Of a DNA stretch of 64,000 bases, positions 5,930 to 38,986 are shown piece after piece; positions within the stretch are counted from its first letter, which is position 1, and each line of letters begins with the position of its first letter. The notes below the pieces were generated by a model that was not told the origin of the DNA, did not search any database, and was given only the letters and a program-made list of their open reading frames with translations. Made by a program: the position numbers and the translations under genes. The stretch comes from an uncultured bacterium (GTDB lineage: Bacteria > Patescibacteriota > Minisyncoccia > UBA6257 > 2-01-FULL-56-20), in NCBI GenBank assembly GCA_963718515.1, contig OY970354.1, positions 174,363 through 238,362 of the forward strand, given 5' to 3'.

Positions 5930-6001
5930 GCTCTCGTAGTTTAATGGATAGAATATCTCCCTCCGAAGGAGGTGGTACAGGTTCGATTCCTGTCGGGAGC
6001 A
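5930..6001 (+). tRNA. tRNA-Arg (anticodon CCG)
   Basis: Hand-folded cloverleaf. Acceptor is GCTCTCG/CGGGAGC, the anticodon stem is TCTCC/GGAGG with loop CTCCGAA, and the T arm is ACAGG-TTCGATT-CCTGT. The discriminator is A and no CCA is encoded. Confidence 0.85.
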
Positions 6002-6011
6002 CAAAAGAAAA

Positions 6012-15596: not shown

Positions 15597-15907
15597 GGGA
15601 GCGCACTGGCTTCGATAAAGATAATCCATGGGTTTGCGAGTCGTTGGCAACGTCGTTATCGTTGCACAACCTATAACTGCCAACCGAAAAGTTGCAGCTC
15701 CTGCTTTCGCTTACGCCTAAGCAGGGATCGGCCAGCCCGGGTCTCTTGGGCTGATACCGGTCTTATATAAGGAGACTAGCGTCAGGTTGACGATCATACG
15801 CCCGGCGCGAAAATATGATCACTTCGCTTAGCATCGCTAAACTACGCTCGTAGACGGCCCATCGGCATTATCTTTACACGGCGGTTCGATTCCGCCCGCT
15901 TCCACCA
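15597..15907 (+). ncRNA. ssrA: tmRNA (SsrA)
   Basis: The 5' GGGAGCG pairs with the 3' CGCTTCC, including the G3:U alanine identity pair. The 3' tRNA-like end is GGCGGTTCGATTCCGCCCGCTTCCACCA. An internal tag frame ends ...AAPAFAYA-TAA (15642-15716 region). Confidence 0.85.
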
Positions 15908-29326: not shown

Positions 29327-31081
29327 ATGAAAGAAACGCTCGCTCATCTATTGCAAAAAATTCTCGGCACCGATGGTCCGGTGGATATTTCGGTTCCCGA
29401 CGAGGAGCTCTTTGGGCACTATGCCACAAACGTCGCCTTGCGTGCGGCGTCGACGACGAAGAAGACGAAGACGAAAGGCGTTCCGCCGCTTGAGTTGGCA
29501 AAGGAGTATGCGGCGCGCATCGCGGCCGCGGCGCCCGCAGGATTTTTCCAAAAAGTGGAGGCCGCGGCGCCGGGCTTTATCAATTTGTGGCTGAGCAATG
29601 AAACGGTGCAAAAAGAATTTGAGAAGATCGCACACGACAAAAAATTCGGCGAGGGAAATGTGGGGCGGGGAAAGACGCTCATCGTGGAATATTCCGATCC
29701 GAACATCGCGAAAAAGATGCACGTGGGCCACATGCGCACGACGATCATAGGTGCCGCGCTCGCGAATATCCTCGAGTGTTCCGGCTATCATGTGGTGCGG
29801 TGGAATTATCTTGGCGACTGGGGCACGCAGTTCGGCAAGCTCATTGCCGCCTACAAGCTGTGGGGTGATAAGAAACGCGTCGAGAGCGATCCCATCGAGA
29901 GAACTTCAGCGACTTTATGTGCGCTTTCACGAAGAAATCAAATTCGACTCTGCGCTCGAAAAGCGCGGGCAGGAGGAGTTTAAAAAATTGGAAGAGGGCG
30001 ACCCCGAGAACCGAAAGCTGTGGGAGTGGTTCAAGAAGGAATCGCTTGGGCGAATTCAATAAGCTTTATAAATTATTGGACGTCGACTTCGATACGTGGA
30101 TCGGCGAAAGTTTTTTTGAAGGCGAGATGAAGGCAACGGTCAAGGGATTGCTTGATAACGGCATTGCAGAGCGCAGCGAAGGCGCGGTCGTTATCAAGCT
30201 TGATGCGGAAGGATTGCCGCCAGCGCTCATTCAAAAGTCCGACGGCGCGAGTCTCTATCTTACGCGCGACATTGCGAACCTTCGCTACCGGTTGAAGAAA
30301 TATAATCCCGCGAAAATTTTATATCGTGGTGGGAAATGAGCAGTCGCTCGCATTCGATCAGCTGTTTGCGGTGGCAAAGCGGCTTGGGTTGGATAGTGCT
30401 GAGCTCAAGCATATAAAATATGGTCTGGTGCTGGGCGAAGGCGGCAAGAAATTTTCCACGCGCGCGGGCACGGCGGAGCTTTTGGAGGATTTGATCGACC
30501 ATGCAGTCGAAAAAGCGCGCGAGGTCATCGACGCAAAAAATCCCGATCTCGGGGCGAAGGAAAAAGCGGAGATCGCGTTCGCGGTTGCGATGGGCGCGCT
30601 GAAATACAATGACCTTAAGGAAAATCGCACGACGGATATTATTTTTGATTGGAAGAAGATGTTGGATTTCGGGGGCGACAGCGCGCCGTATTTGCAGTAC
30701 ACCTACGCGCGCCTGCGGAGCATTTTGCGCAAGGCTGGTGCCGGAGGCGCTGCCGCGGGTGCAATAAAAGCCATAGCCGGTCTTGGCAGCGCCGCCGATA
30801 TCGCGGCGCTCGACCGCTCGACCGAGCTTGCGCTCATGCGGAAGTTATTCGAATTTCCGGATATCGTGGAACGTGCGGGCGAGTTGTACTCAACAAGCAC
30901 GCTCGCGACATATCTCTACAAGCTCGCCGTCGCGGCGAACAAGTTTTATGAAACGACGCCGATTTTGAAGGACGAGGATGCGGGGCGGCGCAGGGCGCGA
31001 CTTACGCTCGCCGGCACCGCCGCCGACGTTCTGCAAAAGGGCTTGGCTCTGCTTGGGATCAAGACGCTTGAAAAGATCTAG
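29327..31081 (+). pseudogene. argS: arginyl-tRNA synthetase, three +1 frame breaks
   Basis: The class I signature is spread over four frame segments: SDPNIAKKMHVGHMRTT (HIGH-like), LQRLYVRFHEE..., GEFNKLYKLLDVDFD...KSDGASLYLTRDIANL, VVGNEQSLAFDQLF...MGALKYNDL. Breaks lie near 29900, 30047 and 30318. Confidence 0.85.
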
Positions 31082-31160: not shown

Positions 31161-34100
31161 ATGGGCAAGAAAACTCCAAAAAAAATAGCGTCAGCACCCG
31201 CATTCCTTCATGACGAAGAGTTCAAACTTCCTGAGCTAGAGGAAAAAGTCCTGAAGTTTTGGGATGAACAGCATATTTTTGAGCGCTCGCTCGTAAAAAA
31301 ACAGGGAGCAAAGACATTCGTTTTTTATGAAGGTCCGCCATACGCAAATGGCAAGCCGGCTATCCATCACGTGATCAGCCGTATCGTAAAAGATGTCATC
31401 TTGCGATACAAAACGATGCAGGGATATAACGTTCCGCGCCGCGCGGGATGGGACACTCACGGCTTGCCGGTGGAGATCGCCACGGAAAAAGCGCTTGGAT
31501 TGAAATCAAAAAAAGAGATCGAGCAGTTTGGCGTAAAGCAGTTCAACGAGAAAGCCACGTGAGCAGGTGTGGATCTATAAAGATGAGTGGGAGCGCATGA
31601 CGCGGCGCATCGGATATTGGCTTGATCTTAAGAATGCGTACGTCACGTACGAGCCGGAATATATCGAGACGCTCTGGTGGACGCTTGCGCAGATCTCAAA
31701 GCGCAAATTGCTCTATAAAGGATTCAAAGTGGTGCCGTGGTGCACGCGCGACGGTACATCGCTTTCATCGCACGAGCTTGCGCAGGGATATAAAGAGGTG
31801 ACCGACACGTCGGTATATGTTAAATTTAAATTGAAATCCGGGCAGACAATTTGGAAATTATGCCACAAACGGACGACGCGTATATTTTGTCGTGGACGAC
31901 GACGCCGTGGACATTGCCGGGGAACGTGGCACTCGCGGTGGGCGAAAAGATTTCCTACAGCGCGATCCGCGTGAAGGGCGAAAAGGGCTTGTATCTATTG
32001 GCCACCGATCTTGTAGGGAAGGTTTTCAAAGATCAGCCCGTCGAAATAGTGCATGATGACATCAAGGGGAAAGACCTGGTGGGTCTCGAGTACGAGCCGT
32101 TTTTTGATATTCCATCCTTGCAGATCACCGCAGTCCTACAAGATCTATCCCGCCGATTTTGTGACGACGACCGACGGCACGGGTGTCGTGCACACTGCGG
32201 TGATGTACGGCGAGGATGATTATGCGCTCGGCAAAAAAGTTCGGCTTGCCGGAATATCACACAGTCAATGAAGAGGGGAAGTTTACCAGAGAGGTGCGCG
32301 GGTTGGCGGGCGAGTACGTAAAGTCAAAAGATGACGGAAGAGCATATTTTCAAACACCTCGAAGGAGAATGGCAATTTGTTGCGGACCGAGCCCTATGTG
32401 CACGAATATCCATTCTGCTGGCGGTGCGGCACGGCCATCTTGTATTACGCCCGCTCGTCGTGGTTCATCGCAATGTCCAAGCTCCGCGCGGAGTTATTAA
32501 AAAATAATAAAACCGTCAATTGGATGCCCGCGCACGTAAAGAACGGCCGCTTTGGCGAGTGGCTGCGCGAGGTGAAGGACTGGAATTTGTCGCGCGATCG
32601 CTATTGGGGCACGCCGCTTGCCGATCTGGGAATGCAAAAAGTGCGATCACACTGAAGTCGTCGGCAGTATGGATGAGCTTGATCAGCCTGGCGGGGGGTC
32701 CAAAGAATAAGTATTGGGCGATGCGGCATGGGGAATCGGAGAATAATATTCTTCACGATCATCGATTCCGGGCAACAGCAATATCCACTTACGGCCGAAG
32801 GGGAAAAAACAGGTGGCGGCAACGCTGAAACAATTAAAGCAGGCGCTTAAGAAGAAGGGCAAAAAGATAGATCTCATTTTTAGCTCCGATCTTTTGCGCA
32901 CACAAGAGACCGCGGAGATCATCGCGAAAGATCTTTGGGCATACAAGGTCCAGCTCGATAAGCGATTGCGCGAGATCTATCATTGGGGCGCTGAATTTGG
33001 AAGGCCGCCCTATCGCAGAATATTTGAATAGGATACCGACGTATGAACGACGTTTCGAAGAGGAGATCCAGGGGCATAGAATCGTTCCGCGATGTCCGGG
33101 CACGCGCATGGGATTTTCTCAAAGAATGTGAAAAGAACTATTCCGGGAAGAATATTTTGATCGTGAGCCATGAGCGATACGATATGGATGATGCTTCACG
33201 TCGGCGAACGGTTCGTTCGGAGCAAAAAGAGCATTGATCAAAAAAGAAACGACGATGATATTTTATCCGAACACCGCGCAGATAAAAGAATTCGAGGTAA
33301 AGATACTCCCGCGCGACGATAGCGGGGGCGTGGATCTTCACCGTCCGTTCGCCGATACGATATTCCCGCCGTGCCCGAAGTGCGGCGCGCTGATGAAGCG
33401 TGTGCCGGAGGTTGCGGACGTGTGGTATGACTCGGGAGCGATGCCGTATGCGCAGGCCCACTATCCTTTTTCTGTCTCGACGAAGACGAATATAAAAACA
33501 TTGTCGGGCCTCGACTTCCCCGCCGATTATATTTCCGAGGGAATGGACCAGACGCGCGGATGGTTCTACACGCTTATGGCCATTGCGACGGCGCTCGGCT
33601 ACGAGAGCGCCGTATAAAAATGTGATCGCGCTTGGCTTGATCAACGACAAATTCGGCCAGAAGATGTCCAAGTCGAAGGGGAATGTCGTCGAGCCGTTTG
33701 CGGTCATCGAAAAATATGGTGTCGATGCCTTGCGCTGGTACTTCTTTACGGGATCACCGCTTGGCGAGCCGAAGAATTTTGACGAGCTCGAGATTGCGAA
33801 AGCGTTCCGGAAGACGCACCTTATTGTTTATAACTCATTCGTGTTCTGGAAGACGTATGCCGCGGCCAAGGCAAAGATGCCTTCGCCAGGGAGCGCTGTC
33901 GCAAAAAATGTTTTGGACCAGTGGATCCTCGCGCGGCTGGATGGAACGAACGATGCGGTCACGAAAAAACTGAATGCGTACGAGATCCGCGAGGCGGCGC
34001 TCGAGATCGAGACGCTCGTCGATGACCTTTCGCGCTGGTATATCCGCCGCTCGCGACGCCGGTTGCAGCGCCCGGAGAGCGCCGCGGACTACGCCGCCGC

Positions 34101-34766
34101 ATCGGCGACGCTTGGCTATGTCTTGCTTTCGCTCGTAAAAATGATGGCGCCGTTCACGCCGTTCTTCTCGGAGATATTCTACGGTCCGCTCGGTGGTGCA
34201 AAGAATTCGGTGCATTTGGACGAGTGGCCGCGTCTGGGCGTCGGTGGAAAAAAACGATCCGCCGTTGCCAATAAGAAATTGTTTGGCCAGATGGCCGCCG
34301 CGCGGGAATTCGCCGCCGCGGGGCTCGCCGCAGCGTGCGGAAAGTGGGCATCAAGGTTCGCCAGCCGCTCGCGTCGATGAAGGTCGGCATAAAGTTGGGA
34401 GAAGAATTTGAGAAGATCGTTGCCGAGGAAGTGAACGTCAAAAAAATAATTTTTACAGCAAAACAGAAAGGCGTTGAGCTCGACACAACGATCACCCCCG
34501 CGCTTCGCGAGGAGGGTTTGGTGCGCGAGGTGGCCCGGATGTTTCAGGAACTCCGGCAAAAGGCGGGGCTTCAGCCGAAGGATAAGATCGTGGCGCTCCT
34601 CGACCTGCCCCCGGATGCAAAGCGTGCAGTTGCGAACAACGAGGCGGCGTTCAAGGCCGACATCGGCGCGAAATCGGTTGAGTATGGGCGGTCAGAAAAA
34701 TTCCTTGCGGAAGAAGTTACAAAGCTTGAAGGCCAGGAAGCGTGGGTGGCGATACGGAAGGCCTGA
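31161..34766 (+). pseudogene. ileS: isoleucyl-tRNA synthetase, at least 15 frame breaks, with inserted phosphatase domain
   Basis: IleRS motifs are spread across about 16 frame segments: PPYANGKPAIHHV (HIGH), [106 protein letters not shown]. Confidence 0.85.
32694..33325 (+). other. histidine phosphatase (phosphoglycerate-mutase-like, RHG) domain embedded in ileS
   Basis: Conceptual translation across frame breaks gives KNKYWAMRHGESENNIL, IIDSGQQQYPLTAEGEK, KIDLIFSSDLLRTQETAEIIA, ESFRDVRARAWDFL and GKNILIVSHE. These are the RHG, SSxLxRxxQTA and VSH signatures. The domain is bounded by the IleRS segments ...[18 protein letters not shown] and DLHRPFAD. Confidence 0.65.
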
Positions 34767-36480: not shown

Positions 36481-38448
36481 CTATATCTCTATCACGACCG
36501 GCAAGATCATCGGCCGGCGCTTGGTCTTGGTATAGAGGTACTGGCCGACCTGGTCGCGCAGGAGCGTCTTCACGTAATCTGGCTCCACTTCCTTGAAGTT
36601 CGGGATGCGCGTCATGAGGCCGCGGATGCGCTTGCGGATCTCGTCCAGAATTTCCTGGTTGTCTTTAAGGTAGATGAAGCCGCGCGAAATGATGTCGGGA
36701 TTTTTAAGCAGTTTGCCTTTGTCGCGATCGACGGTGAGGATGATCACAAGCATGCCTTCCTGCGGCGAGCGCGCGGCGGTCGCGCAAAACGACTTCTTCC
36801 ACGTCACCGACGCCGAGTCCGTCCACCATCACGTAGAATGCGGGAACTGTTTCTTTCGTGACCTTAAATCCGTCCGGGCGTAAGCTCGGCGACCTCGCCG
36901 TTATCCATCAAAATCACGTTTTCTTTTGTGATGCCGGCTTCGCGCGCGGTGATGCCGTTCGCGGCGCGCATAAAGTAGTAGCCGTGCACGGGCACGAGGT
37001 ATGTCGGATTGATGAGCTTCATCACGAGCTTGAGGTCGTCCTTCGGCGCGTGGCCGGAGGAGTGGATGTCGACGAGGCTCGAGTGATACACGATCGCTCC
37101 CTGCCGCGCGAGGTTGTCCTTAACGGACTGCACGCTGCGTTCGTTACCCGGAATCACCGATGACGAAAGCACCATCGTGTCGCCCGGCTTGATCTTGATG
37201 TGGCGGTGTTCGCCGTTGATCATCTTCATGAGGCCTGCGTTCGATTCGCCTTGTGCGCCGGTCGAGAGAATAAGTATTTTATCGTCTTTGAACTTGTTCA
37301 CTTCTTCGACGGCGATGATCGTGCCTTCCTTGGCTTTTACGAAGCCGAGGTTTTGCGCGATGGCGATGTTCGTCTTCATGGAGTAGCCGTTCAGCGCGAC
37401 CTTGCGGCCGAGCTTCTCGGCGATCAAGATGATCTCCGCGATGCGGGTGAGGAGCGAGGCGAACGTGGCGACGATGATGCGGCCTTCCGCTTTTTTGAAG
37501 ATCTCTTCAAGGTTGCGCTCGACGGTCTTTTCGGAAACCGAGTGGCCCGGCTTTTCGGCGTTCGTGCTGTCCACCATGAATGTGTGGACGCCCATCTTGC
37601 CGATCCGCTCGAATTCTTCGAGACCCTGCGGCTCGCCTTCGTCGTTGTAATCCACGCGGAAGTCCGCAAAGTGGACGATGTTGCCTGCGGGCGTTTTCAT
37701 CATCACGCCGGTCGTTTCCGGAATGGTGTGCGGCACGCCGAAGAATAGCGCTGAGAAGTTGTTCGAGATCTTTATATCGCTCGCCGTTCTTGACGATCTG
37801 CACGTTCATCTTCGGCGCGTTCGGAAAATCATCCTGGCGCTTTTCGATGATCGCTTTCGTGATCGACGTCGCGTAGATCGGGGGATTGCCGAGTTTGGCG
37901 AGTAGATGCGGCAATGCGCCGATGTGGTCGTAGTGTCCGTGCGTCAAAATGATGCCGGCGATGTTCTGCTTTTTCTTTTCGAGATATTCGATGTTCGGGA
38001 TGATGTAATCGATGCCCGGCGTTTCGTCTTCGGGGAACTGCAATCCGACGTCGATGATGACGATCTCGTTCTTGTATTCCAAGAACATGCAGTTGCGGCC
38101 GACTTCTTCCAAGCCGCCGAGCGGCACAAAGCGCACCGCGTCGGGATTCGACTTATCGTTCGGGTCGCGCGCGACCACGGGCTTTGGCCCCATCTTTGAA
38201 TTTTGCGGATGGATACTGCCGGGCCGAGGTGTGCCGTTCATGCGATCATTGCCGCGTCGCGGGCCGTGCGGGGTACGAGGACGATCACCGCGATCGCGCT
38301 GGGGCGCGCCGGTTTTTTGCGGGCGCGCGGGCGCGGCCGGCGGGGCGGTTGCTCCTGTAGGCGCCACCCACGGCCGTATCTCAGGCGGTTTTATACGCGG
38401 GCGTTCCTTTGCGGGCGCCTCATTATTATTTTCGTTTTTCTTAATCAT
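36481..38448 (-). pseudogene. rnj: ribonuclease J, about three frame breaks
   Basis: A basic low-complexity N-terminal extension is followed by GGLEEVGRNCMFLEY, ILTHGHYDHIGALP (MBL), the beta-CASP region HSSGHA, and the C-terminal domain in 36481-36807. Segments lie in three frames, each step behaving as +1. Confidence 0.85.
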
Positions 38449-38867: not shown

Positions 38868-38902
38868 GAATGATGTTTTGTTGCGATGCTAAGAAATATG
38901 TG

Positions 38903-38986
38903 TGCTGGAGAGGGGAGTTGAACCCCTATGATCTTGCGATCGCTGGCACCTGAAGCCAGTGCGTCTGCCAGTTCCGCCACCCCAGC
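38903..38986 (-). tRNA. tRNA-Leu (anticodon CAG)
   Basis: Hand-folded. Acceptor is GCTGGGG/CTCCAGC, the anticodon stem is CTGGC/GCCAG with loop TTCAGGT. It has a long variable arm and the T arm AGGGG-TTCAACT-CCCCT. Confidence 0.85.

What the first reader, a model, noticed from the sequence alone, without database searches (positions are those of the whole stretch)
32620..33350. Complete histidine-phosphatase (RHG) domain inserted inside isoleucyl-tRNA synthetase
The insertion lies between two IleRS segments: [29 protein letters not shown] and [35 protein letters not shown]. Canonical bacterial IleRS has only a short linker there. This gene carries about 630 nt whose conceptual translation, stitched across frame breaks, has the full signature set of the phosphoglycerate-mutase-like histidine phosphatase superfamily. 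Those signatures are YWAMRHGESENN, IDLIFSSDLLRTQETAEI and KNILIVSHE. No stop/start or ribosome-binding signal separates it from the flanking IleRS sequence, so it reads as an in-line domain insertion between the two Zn-knuckle CxxC motifs. I do not know of a described IleRS with this insertion. A phosphatase fused to an aminoacyl-tRNA synthetase suggests processing of a phosphorylated nucleotide by-product or regulator, which is speculative. This ~630-nt stretch also holds about 7 of the gene's ~16 frame breaks. That could reflect strain heterogeneity at this locus.
Basis: partly seen in the sequence, partly recalled or inferred. Interest (0 to 1): 0.6.

Follow-up and report, generated by a model that had tools for sequence, protein, structure and literature searches.

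The report
Phosphatase domain built into IleRS
The isoleucyl-tRNA synthetase gene in this window really does carry a complete, apparently active histidine-phosphatase domain spliced into its catalytic body; hundreds of ultra-small "CPR" bacteria share this arrangement, and I found no paper describing it.

Summary
Confirmed. Window 31161-34766 (+) is a type-2 isoleucyl-tRNA synthetase gene (ileS). About 212 codons (nt 32687-33329) replace the 8-residue linker between two Zn knuckles with a full His_Phos_1 domain (Pfam E=4e-35).

The gene's 18 frame breaks all act as +1 shifts. Correcting them leaves no in-frame stop and keeps the conserved residues, so they are consensus errors, not decay.

The same in-line insertion sits in one unbroken ORF in at least 120 Patescibacteria species genomes and in all 120 closest database homologues (55-76% identity). 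All 256 domain copies examined keep the R-H...R...E/D...H catalytic set. AlphaFold gives a confident PhoE/CobC-like fold.

New findings:
- In a sister lineage the same phosphatase is a separate gene wedged between argS and ileS, and that ileS lacks the insert. Trees suggest this is a fission of an ancestral insertion.
- Peribacteria carry two or three copies inside IleRS.

The substrate is unknown and no phosphatase equivalog threshold is met. My best guess is an autonomous small-molecule phosphomonoesterase kept in 1:1 linkage with IleRS. Direct coupling to tRNA-Ile charging is not excluded. No paper found describes the arrangement.

The parts
31161..34766 (+). ileS, type-2 isoleucyl-tRNA synthetase with an embedded His_Phos domain. 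It is about 1195 codons after removing 18 frame-breaking bases.
   Evidence: ATG at 31161 and stop at 34764-34766. The corrected protein is 77% identical to the intact P0121 with 0 in-frame stops. Pfam finds tRNA-synt_1, His_Phos_1, Anticodon_1 and DUF5915. Best solved relatives are IleRS2 8c8w and 1ile.
31161..32686 (+). IleRS N-terminal part: first half of the catalytic fold, the CP1/editing domain, and the connective-peptide region up to the first Zn knuckle.
   Evidence: Aligns to P. megaterium IleRS2 residues 12-476.
31359..31370 (+). Class I signature motif in its non-canonical form, A-I-H-H (G/AXHH).
   Evidence: PAIHHV lies at 31356-31373. The G/AXHH motif is linked to mupirocin hyper-resistance in IleRS2 (PMC10485003).
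32633..32644 (+). First Zn knuckle, C-K-K-C.
   Evidence: WECKKCDH lies at 32627-32650.
32687..33329 (+). Inserted histidine-phosphatase (His_Phos_1, branch 1) domain with its short linkers, about 212 codons.
   Evidence: Pfam PF00300 E=3.8e-35. The segment replaces an 8-aa linker of 8c8w. In homologue models this domain has pLDDT 93-98, and Foldseek matches it to PhoE, CobC, GpgP and PspA with TM 0.70-0.77.
32724..32732 (+). R-H-G motif: the phosphate-binding Arg and the nucleophilic His.
   Evidence: MRHG lies at 32721-32732. R and H are conserved in 256/256 domain copies.
32897..32899 (+). Second catalytic Arg, in the SSDLLRT motif.
   Evidence: Position. Conserved in 256/256 copies.
32972..32974 (+). 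Glu of the RLRE motif, the expected proton donor.
   Evidence: Position. E in 245 and D in 11 of 256 copies.
33169..33171 (+). Second catalytic His, in the IVSHE motif.
   Evidence: Position. Conserved in 253/256 copies; the other 3 are gaps in the alignment. This residue was not part of the DNA search pattern.
33372..33383 (+). Second Zn knuckle, C-P-K-C.
   Evidence: Position.
33330..34766 (+). IleRS C-terminal part: second half of the catalytic fold (KMSKS at 33661-33675), the anticodon-binding domain, and the type-2 C-terminal domains.
   Evidence: Aligns to 8c8w residues 485-846. KMSKS position. Anticodon_1 and DUF5915 hits.
29327..31081 (+). argS, the conserved upstream neighbour, with 2 frame breaks. 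In sister lineages the free-standing phosphatase gene sits between argS and ileS.
   Evidence: Three overlapping ORFs. The argS-hp-ileS arrangement is seen in loci L124-L137.

Best explanation
SHOWN. This is a genuine, lineage-wide domain insertion. A complete histidine phosphatase with an intact catalytic site, of the PhoE/CobC-like branch-1 type, sits at the tip of the two-knuckle Zn hairpin. That hairpin lies in the connective-peptide region of an otherwise ordinary type-2 IleRS. The window's copy belongs to a Paceibacterota (Parcubacteria) organism, judged from the NCBI names given to its closest homologues. Its 18 frame breaks are consensus errors.

INFERRED from trees and synteny. The insertion is old within Patescibacteria. 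In one sublineage it was popped out again as a separate gene that stayed immediately upstream of ileS (argS-hp-ileS). In Peribacteria it was duplicated to two or three copies inside IleRS.

INFERRED mechanism, about 45% likely. IleRS charges tRNA-Ile as usual. The phosphatase folds as an independent globule on a peripheral hairpin. Using the His of RHG as a phospho-acceptor, it hydrolyses a soluble phosphomonoester, either a small metabolite or a nucleotide. What the fusion or adjacency provides is obligatory 1:1 co-production and co-localisation with IleRS, not a new step in aminoacylation chemistry. The substrate is not identified.

The overall confidence of 0.55 blends about 0.95 for the structural and evolutionary reality of the insertion with about 0.45 for this mechanism.
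For: Reality of the insertion:
- Pfam hits.
- An 8-residue linker is replaced, as seen against 8c8w.
Most carry single ORFs of 1110-1530 aa.
- All 120 best full-length homologues carry PF00300. P0121 passes the TIGR00392 ileS equivalog, 843 against a cut-off of 621.

Catalytic competence:
- R/H/R/E(D)/H are kept in all 256 domain copies where the column is aligned (the second His is a gap in 3). This includes residues outside the search pattern and the second and third copies.
- The insert is 50% identical within the window's clade, against 65% for the IleRS body.
- The domain has pLDDT 93-98 and whole-target TM 0.70-0.77 to PhoE, CobC, GpgP and PspA.

Normal IleRS body:
- The full-length model has pLDDT 87 and pTM 0.81, with TM 0.77-0.87 to IleRS2 structures.
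- The window protein was not among the twelve sequences with the most violations, so it breaks at most 2 of about 162 invariant columns.

Genetic partnership with IleRS:
- 5 of 5 free-standing homologues (43-55% identical to each other) lie between argS and an insert-less ileS.
- None of the 120 insert-bearing loci has a separate hp gene in the DNA held.
- The IleRS-body tree and the phosphatase tree agree on which inserted forms are nearest the split forms.

Action in trans: the split form shows that covalent linkage is not required.

Frame breaks are errors: 17 are +1 and one is -2, there are 0 in-frame stops, and large neighbouring ORFs are intact.
Against: - No substrate is identified. The insert falls below every NCBIfam phosphatase equivalog cut-off.
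- Persistent linkage in two genetic formats could instead mean real mechanistic coupling to IleRS. So could the retention of extra copies inside IleRS, including a second, non-tandem site in L016.
- The tools return no coordinates, so I could not measure where the phosphatase active site points relative to the synthetic site, the editing site or the tRNA.
- The trees are neighbour-joining without support values, and only two insert-less IleRS sequences were included.
- I could not check whether these genomes hold a second ileS or other His_Phos genes.
Confidence: 0.55

Rival explanations
1. Direct mechanistic coupling. The phosphatase acts on something in IleRS's own pathway. Candidates are a phosphate on the tRNA 3' end, inhibitory phosphorylation of IleRS itself (as Hip-type toxin kinases do to the KMSKS loop of other class I synthetases, from general knowledge), or a phosphorylated nucleotide product or inhibitor.
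For: - Rosetta-stone logic: the fused form and the conserved adjacent form alternate across lineages.
- Duplicated copies stay inside IleRS, one at a second site in L016.
- The linkers are modelled with high confidence, which suggests a fixed docking.
- Many of these enzymes also carry the G/AXHH motif linked to antibiotic pressure on IleRS.
Against: - The closest characterised relatives all act on small metabolites.
- To my knowledge no histidine-phosphatase family member is known to act on RNA ends.
- The free-standing form works without a tether.
- The insertion site is a peripheral, permissive hairpin that some members have even lost (L038 lacks the Cys knuckles).
Confidence: 0.25
2. Hidden glycolytic enzyme. 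The domain is the cell's cofactor-dependent phosphoglycerate mutase, overlooked because it is buried in a protein annotated as IleRS.
For: - The best NCBIfam hit is the short archaeal dPGM model (90.7 bits).
Against: - The score is far below the dPGM_arch cut-off (90.7 against 225) and below TIGR01258 (24 against 81.7). The CobC and RNase H/acid-phosphatase models score about the same.
- The domain is PhoE-sized (about 190 aa). By eye it lacks the FTGW motif and the longer dPGM segment carrying the distal Arg pair.
- Structural matches cover the short phosphatases better than the dPGMs (TMt 0.70-0.77 against 0.58-0.68).
Confidence: 0.12
3. Catalytically irrelevant appendage. The fold is kept only as a structural, tRNA-binding or protein-docking module.
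For: Synthetases often acquire non-catalytic add-on domains (general knowledge).
Against: Every catalytic residue is kept in all 256 copies where the column is aligned, across classes and across duplicated copies. That pattern is not expected for a purely structural role.
Confidence: 0.05
4. Artefact or decay. The insert is an assembly chimera or a separate gene splitting ileS, or the whole gene is a pseudogene, as its many frame breaks might suggest.
For: 18 frame breaks fall in 3.6 kb, against about 3 known in the rest of the 64 kb. The first homologue search returned mostly fragments.
Against: - The identical architecture is intact in more than 240 other sequences, including complete genomes.
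- Every break acts as a +1 shift (17 are +1, one is -2), there are no in-frame stops, and the invariant residues are kept. That is the signature of sequencing error, not of mutational decay.
- The fragment bias of the first search disappeared when the full-length query was used.
Confidence: 0.02

Closest known systems
Type-2 isoleucyl-tRNA synthetase (IleRS2): P. megaterium 8C8U/V/W, T. thermophilus 1ILE
   Same: The whole body matches: the catalytic fold with KMSKS, the CP1/editing domain, two Zn knuckles, the anticodon-binding domain and the type-2 C-terminal domains. phmmer gives E=1e-226. The model has TM 0.77-0.87. The TIGR00392 equivalog is passed.
   Different: About 211 extra residues forming a second enzyme domain sit where solved IleRS2 has an 8-residue linker. 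The window's signature motif is AIHH rather than HXGH.
Short branch-1 histidine phosphatases: PhoE (1H2E/1EBB), CobC alpha-ribazole phosphatase (6E4B, 6NRU), GpgP Rv2419c (4PZ9), PspA (4IJ5)
   Same: The same fold over the whole length (TM 0.70-0.77), the same size, and the same R-H / R / E / H catalytic set.
   Different: Sequence identity is only 20-25%. No equivalog cut-off is reached. The domain is embedded inside another enzyme, and its substrate is unknown.
Free-standing CPR His_Phos gene between argS and ileS (e.g. P0065, P0067, P0088, P0120, P0022)
   Same: It is the closest sequence relative of the insert (about 40-45% identical). It shares the catalytic set and the same gene neighbourhood, argS...ileS...recO.
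   Different: It is a separate 190-198 aa protein, and the adjacent ileS (923-982 aa) has only the short 68-70 aa knuckle segment. It appears to be derived from the inserted state.
Bifunctional RNase H / acid phosphatase (NCBIfam NF005567, the Rv2228c type)
   Same: A CobC-like histidine phosphatase fused to a housekeeping nucleic-acid enzyme. The insert scores 74-87 bits against its phosphatase half.
   Different: That is an end-to-end fusion rather than an internal insertion, with a different partner enzyme. The score is below the cut-off of 326.
IleRS with an N-acetyltransferase domain (NCBIfam NF040702, ileS_w_GNAT)
   Same: It is a precedent for an IleRS variant that carries an extra catalytic domain.
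   Different: The extra domain is of a different kind (GNAT). The score is 323 against a cut-off of 1999, so the window protein is not a member.

Membership tests
Histidine phosphatase superfamily, branch 1 (Pfam PF00300) | Score above the Pfam gathering threshold | tested here: met
   121.7 bits (stitched segment) and 104.5 bits (corrected full protein), against a cut-off of 21.7.
Histidine phosphatase superfamily, branch 1 (Pfam PF00300) | Catalytic core: RHG (Arg plus nucleophile His), a second Arg, a second His, and an acidic proton donor | tested here: met
   Window positions 32724-32732, 32897-32899, 32972-32974 and 33169-33171. The residues are kept in all 256 homologous copies where the column is aligned.
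Histidine phosphatase superfamily, branch 1 (Pfam PF00300) | Complete alpha/beta fold | tested here: met
   This was tested on homologue models, not on the window's own sequence. The domain has pLDDT 93-98, with TM 0.70-0.77 over whole PhoE, CobC and GpgP chains.
Histidine phosphatase superfamily, branch 1 (Pfam PF00300) | Phosphatase or mutase activity | not testable with these tools
   This needs an enzyme assay.
Isoleucyl-tRNA synthetase, type 2 | Passes the ileS equivalog model, with IleRS2 as the best solved relatives | tested here: met
   P0121 (the intact homologue, 77% identical by my alignment) scores 843 against the TIGR00392 cut-off of 621. The window protein gives E=1e-226 to 8c8w.
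Isoleucyl-tRNA synthetase, type 2 | Signature motifs (HXGH or G/AXHH, and KMSKS), an editing domain, and a type-2 C-terminus without a C-terminal Zn-binding domain | tested here: met
   AIHH at 31359-31370 and KMSKS at 33661-33675. DUF5915 (the type-2 C-terminal region) is hit. The model superposes on full-length 8c8v.
Isoleucyl-tRNA synthetase, type 2 | Charges tRNA-Ile | not testable with these tools
   This is inferred only from the conservation of invariant columns.
Cofactor-dependent phosphoglycerate mutase | Reaches a dPGM model threshold | tested here: not met
   NF038349 scores 90.7 against 225, TIGR01258 24.4 against 81.7, and GpmB 65.6 against 261.
Alpha-ribazole phosphatase CobC | Reaches the TIGR03162 or NF011580 threshold | tested here: not met
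   74-89 bits against 162.9, and 47-66 bits against 250.
Phosphohistidine phosphatase SixA | Reaches the TIGR00249 threshold | tested here: not met
   36.7 bits against 74.5, and only the N-terminal third matches.
IleRS with GNAT domain (NF040702) | Reaches the model threshold | tested here: not met
   323 bits against 1999.

The most novel reading that the evidence does not exclude
The embedded phosphatase is a built-in accessory of the charging machinery, not a passenger. It would act on the tRNA-Ile/IleRS system itself. Possible roles are removing a blocking phosphate from the tRNA 3' end, reversing inhibitory phosphorylation of the synthetase, or destroying a phosphorylated inhibitor or by-product at its source. 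That would be a previously unknown kind of synthetase-linked activity, alongside editing.
Probability: 0.2. Interest if true: 0.85.

Novelty: new variant of a known kind. Interest (0 to 1): 0.6.

Why it matters
Aminoacyl-tRNA synthetases are among the most conserved enzymes known. Extra catalytic domains inside their catalytic body are rare, and when understood (the editing domains) they have been fundamental.

Here a second, apparently active enzyme is carried inside an essential synthetase across a large part of the Patescibacteria/CPR radiation. It has been kept linked to ileS even after being split out, and it has been multiplied in one class.

That gives a concrete, clonable target for learning something new about the minimal physiology of these uncultured bacteria. 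It also gives a natural test case for domain insertion and fission in an essential gene. In addition, it warns annotators: NCBI names several of these proteins only 'class I tRNA ligase family protein', and a phosphatase-family enzyme hidden inside IleRS is easy to score as absent in metabolic reconstructions.

Tried and rejected
1. Split gene or pseudogene. The first homologue search returned only fragments, and their contigs (L001-L003) showed broken ileS. This suggested a split or decaying gene. I rejected it. A full-length query returned 120 intact proteins. The fragments were a bias of the word-based candidate step and of my choosing broken examples.

2. Alternative genetic code as the cause of the breaks. 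Rejected, because the breaks are true indels and not stop codons.

3. Phosphatase-domain tree alone to decide single or multiple origin. It was ambiguous with midpoint rooting. It became informative only when compared with the IleRS-body tree.

4. A second His_Phos or ileS copy in the window. None was found.

5. Compositional anomaly over argS-ileS as an explanation for the error hot spot. None was found.

6. Other suspected frameshift pairs in the window. Five same-strand ORF pairs gave no sign of being halves of one gene: three pairs gave no Pfam hit in one or both ORFs, and the rest hit different families. Only RNase J (36864-38448) is split.

7. Assignment to dPGM, CobC, PspA or SixA. All scores are below the cut-offs.

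8. Literature. Eight full-text searches and targeted reading of three IleRS papers and two CPR papers found no mention.

9. Placing the phosphatase pocket relative to the IleRS active sites. This was not possible, because the structure tools return no coordinates.
Full report
**What is in the window.** Region 29.3-36.1 kb holds argS (+), ileS (+) and trpS (-). ileS starts at ATG 31161 and stops at 34764-34766. In the raw sequence it is chopped into many short ORFs.

- YWAMRHGESENN, within 32691-32747
- IDLIFSSDLLRTQETAEI, at 32867-32920
- KNILIVSHE, at 33148-33174
- the flanks WECKKCDH (32627-32650) and ...[12 protein letters not shown]...CPKCGA (33306-33389)

A hand-stitched 282-aa translation hits Pfam His_Phos_1 at E=3.8e-35. 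The fully frame-corrected protein gives tRNA-synt_1, then His_Phos_1 (residues 516-680, E=7.6e-30), then tRNA-synt_1, Anticodon_1 and DUF5915.

**Where the insert sits.** The corrected protein is a type-2 IleRS. Its best solved relatives are P. megaterium IleRS2 (8c8w, E=1e-226) and T. thermophilus IleRS (1ile). Query residues 25-506 align to chain residues 12-476, and query 718-1089 to chain 485-846. About 211 residues (nt 32687-33329) therefore replace an 8-residue linker between the CxxC knuckles (CKKC at 32633-32644, CPKC at 33372-33383).

Brkic et al. give the P. megaterium IleRS2 catalytic core as residues 40-168 and 513-632 (PMC10485003). The site therefore lies in the connective-peptide region just before the second half of the catalytic fold, about 110 codons upstream of KMSKS (33661-33675). 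The C-terminal junction is a single raw ORF (33234-33617). The N-terminal junction has a +1 break at about 32687.

**The frame breaks are errors.** I ran a frameshift-aware protein-to-DNA alignment against three intact homologues that are 75-76% identical by BLASTP. It gives 18 breaks: 17 single-base insertions and one -2, which is the same frame effect. After correction:
- there are no in-frame stops
- the protein is 77% identical to P0121
- the window protein was not among the twelve sequences with the most violations, so it breaks at most 2 of about 162 columns invariant in the other sequences

Uniform +1 insertions, no nonsense codons and intact invariants are the signature of consensus error. 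They are the opposite of bacterial pseudogene decay.

Eight breaks lie at 32617-33203, a modest enrichment (P=0.008-0.03). The striking feature is the gene-level hot spot: 18 breaks in ileS, 2 in argS and 1 in RNase J. Meanwhile ORFs of 856, 600, 548 and 511 aa elsewhere in the window are intact. There is no compositional anomaly. I cannot explain the hot spot without reads. Unpolished or strain-mixed consensus is the likely cause.

**The architecture is real and common.** I searched one genome per GTDB species with a DNA pattern spanning the N-terminal junction (WGxPxPIW, a gap, RHG, a gap, R[TA]x[EQ]T). In every locus the pattern is in frame. Most loci carry one uninterrupted ORF of 1110-1530 aa.

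The hosts are Patescibacteria/CPR:
- Nomura-, Yanofsky-, Zambryski-, Kaiser-, Lipton-, Jorgensen- and Nealsonbacteria and other Paceibacteria
- Magasanik- and Kerfeldbacteria
- Peribacteria/Peregrinibacteria
- the complete-genome or chromosome records CP060229.1, OZ244939.1 and CP129476.1

Two loci labelled Gammaproteobacteria and Caldimicrobium are short contigs, probably mis-binned. Many 'uncultured Saccharibacteria' labels look like placeholders.

Querying the corrected protein returned 120 full-length proteins (55-76% identity, 1103-1261 aa). All of them have PF00300 precomputed. JGI names them isoleucyl-tRNA synthetase. NCBI often names them only 'class I tRNA ligase family protein [Candidatus Paceibacterota]'. 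P0121 passes the ileS equivalog TIGR00392, 843 against 621.

**The phosphatase looks active.** Across 256 domain copies from 243 proteins, the conservation is:
- the RHG Arg and His: 256/256
- the second Arg: 256/256
- the acidic residue: E 245, D 11
- the second His: 253/256, with 3 gaps in the alignment

This includes residues that were not in the search pattern, sequences found by homology rather than by pattern, and second and third copies. Within the window's clade the insert is 50% identical on average, against 65% for the IleRS body.

AlphaFold models give the domain pLDDT 93-98 in a fragment context and 90-97 in a full-length model (mean pLDDT 87.4, pTM 0.81, confident linkers). Foldseek matches the domain over whole chains of short phosphatases: GpgP Rv2419c, PhoE, CobC, PspA and a riboflavin-pathway HFP, with TM 0.70-0.77. 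The longer dPGMs match less well. The full model superposes on IleRS2 structures at TM 0.77-0.87.

By sequence the insert is nearest the archaeal short dPGM, CobC, RNase H/acid-phosphatase, GpmB and PspA models. It falls below every curated cut-off. The substrate cannot be assigned.

**A split version links the phosphatase to ileS.** The closest free-standing relatives of the insert are 190-198 aa CPR proteins. I looked up five of them (P0065, P0067, P0120, P0088, P0022), which are only 43-55% identical to each other. All five lie between argS and ileS, either abutting ileS or, in one case, separated from it by one small ORF. recO follows downstream. In those contigs ileS is 923-982 aa and has no PF00300. 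The two I could extract show the ordinary 68-70 aa two-knuckle segment.

Conversely, none of the 120 insert-bearing loci has a separate phosphatase ORF in the DNA held. argS is directly upstream in 33 of the 44 loci where it is visible. The window has the same order, argS then ileS::HP.

In a neighbour-joining tree of the IleRS body (phosphatase removed, 931 columns), the insert-less IleRS are nested nine nodes deep among insert-bearing ones. Their nearest sisters are L092, L016 and then L028/L079/L048/L035. In the phosphatase-domain tree, the free-standing clade groups with the inserted copies of L028, L035, L071, L092 and L079.

The two trees agree. The simplest history is an old insertion followed by fission in one Paceibacteria sublineage, for example by tandem duplication of ileS::HP and reciprocal loss. 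That would leave the phosphatase gene immediately upstream of ileS. This is an inference from unsupported NJ trees with few split-form sequences.

**Copy-number variants.** Eleven of 242 proteins carry more than one phosphatase domain:
- Peribacteria/Peregrinibacteria have two tandem copies (L005, L011, L056, L087, L088, L106, L118, L123) or three (L097, L107) between WGxPxPxW and WFDSG.
- L016 has a second copy at a different site, between HYPFEN and FPADYI.

Every copy keeps the catalytic residues.

**How it most likely works.**

Shown: two enzymes in one polypeptide. One is a normal-looking IleRS2. The other is a complete phosphatase with its catalytic residues intact, on a peripheral Zn hairpin. 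The two are genetically coupled, either fused or adjacent.

Inferred: because the split form exists, the phosphatase can act in trans. Because its nearest characterised relatives hydrolyse small phosphomonoesters, I take it to be an autonomous phosphomonoesterase. On this view its linkage to ileS secures co-production and co-localisation rather than adding a step to aminoacylation (about 45%).

The main rival is true coupling to the tRNA-Ile/IleRS system (about 25%). It is favoured by the Rosetta-stone pattern and by extra copies staying inside IleRS. It is disfavoured by the lack of any precedent, to my knowledge, for this family acting on RNA ends.

A hidden phosphoglycerate mutase (about 12%) is suggested by the best NCBIfam hit and by a report that PGM seems missing in some Parcubacteria (PMC7304191). 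But the dPGM thresholds and motifs are not met.

A purely structural role (about 5%) conflicts with the fully conserved catalytic set. Chimera, split gene or pseudogene (about 2%) is contradicted by the intact orthologues.

**Novelty.** I ran eight full-text searches. I also read the relevant parts of the IleRS2 structural paper, a 2026 survey of 96,219 IleRS sequences (bioRxiv 10.64898/2026.02.03.703510) and two CPR papers. None mentions a phosphatase in IleRS. NCBIfam has a model for IleRS with a GNAT domain but none for this arrangement.

The architecture is therefore visible in databases but, as far as I can search, undescribed and uncharacterised. I call it a new variant of a known kind: a synthetase with an accessory domain. 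I rate interest at 0.6. It is a widespread, conserved and unexplained second catalytic domain in an essential enzyme, and its fission and amplification history makes the question experimentally tractable.

Noticed in passing
window 31161-34766 (also 29327-31081 and 36864-38448): Frame-break hot spot. ileS has 18 breaks, all acting as +1 shifts and not in homopolymers. argS has 2 and RNase J has 1. ORFs of up to 856 aa elsewhere in the 64 kb are intact, and there is no GC anomaly. It looks like locally unpolished or strain-mixed consensus, but it is unexplained without reads.
   Followed up: partly
window 31359-31370: The class I signature motif is the non-canonical A-I-H-H (G/AXHH). Brkic et al. 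2023 (PMC10485003) link this form to mupirocin hyper-resistance in IleRS2. Among 243 insert-bearing IleRS, 118 have GxHH, 51 AxHH and 34 HxGH; the rest are N-terminally truncated.
   Followed up: partly
L005, L011, L056, L087, L088, L106, L118, L123 (two copies); L097, L107 (three copies): Peribacteria/Peregrinibacteria IleRS carry two or three tandem histidine-phosphatase domains in the same region. Every copy has intact catalytic residues.
   Followed up: partly
L016 (ORF residues 500-691 and 757-950): One IleRS has a second phosphatase copy at a different insertion site, between HYPFEN and FPADYI, downstream of the WFDSG motif.
   Followed up: no
L124-L137 (e.g. L124 3325-8436): In a sister CPR lineage the phosphatase is a separate 190-198 aa gene wedged between argS and an insert-less ileS, followed by recO. 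This held in 5 of 5 proteins looked up.
   Followed up: yes
L038 (CP060229.1, Nomurabacteria): This insert-bearing IleRS has lost the Cys knuckles on both sides of the insert (PIWKNTETKEN... and ...ELYEGETRLVRV). Zn binding at this hairpin is therefore dispensable once the domain is present.
   Followed up: no
window 31735-31758: PWCTRDGT has Asp where most homologues have the second Cys of the upstream Zn site (PWCxRCG). The same Asp occurs in 10 of 65 close homologues, so it is natural variation and not an error.
   Followed up: yes
window 36864-38448 (-): RNase J is split into two overlapping ORFs. One holds the Lactamase_B half and the other the beta-CASP/RMMBL half, which implies one frameshift.
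   Followed up: partly
window 15597-15907 (+); 5930-6002 (+); 38902-38986 (-): A tmRNA with tag peptide ANRKVAAPAFAYA, a tRNA-Arg(CCG) and a tRNA-Leu(CAG).
   Followed up: no
L010 (CAZKMF010000082.1), L099 (CAYTDX010000203.1); many CAY*/CAZ* loci: Two insert-bearing contigs are filed under Gammaproteobacteria and Caldimicrobium bins, probably through mis-binning. L010 groups with Patescibacteria IleRS. Many TPA records labelled 'uncultured Candidatus Saccharibacteria' group with Paceibacteria sequences, so those labels look unreliable.
   Followed up: partly
P0131, P0133, P0156, P0178, P0195, P0197, P0225, P0227, P0228: NCBI names these intact insert-bearing proteins only 'class I tRNA ligase family protein', although P0121 and P0133 pass the ileS equivalog model. 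The embedded phosphatase is not reflected in any name.
   Followed up: partly
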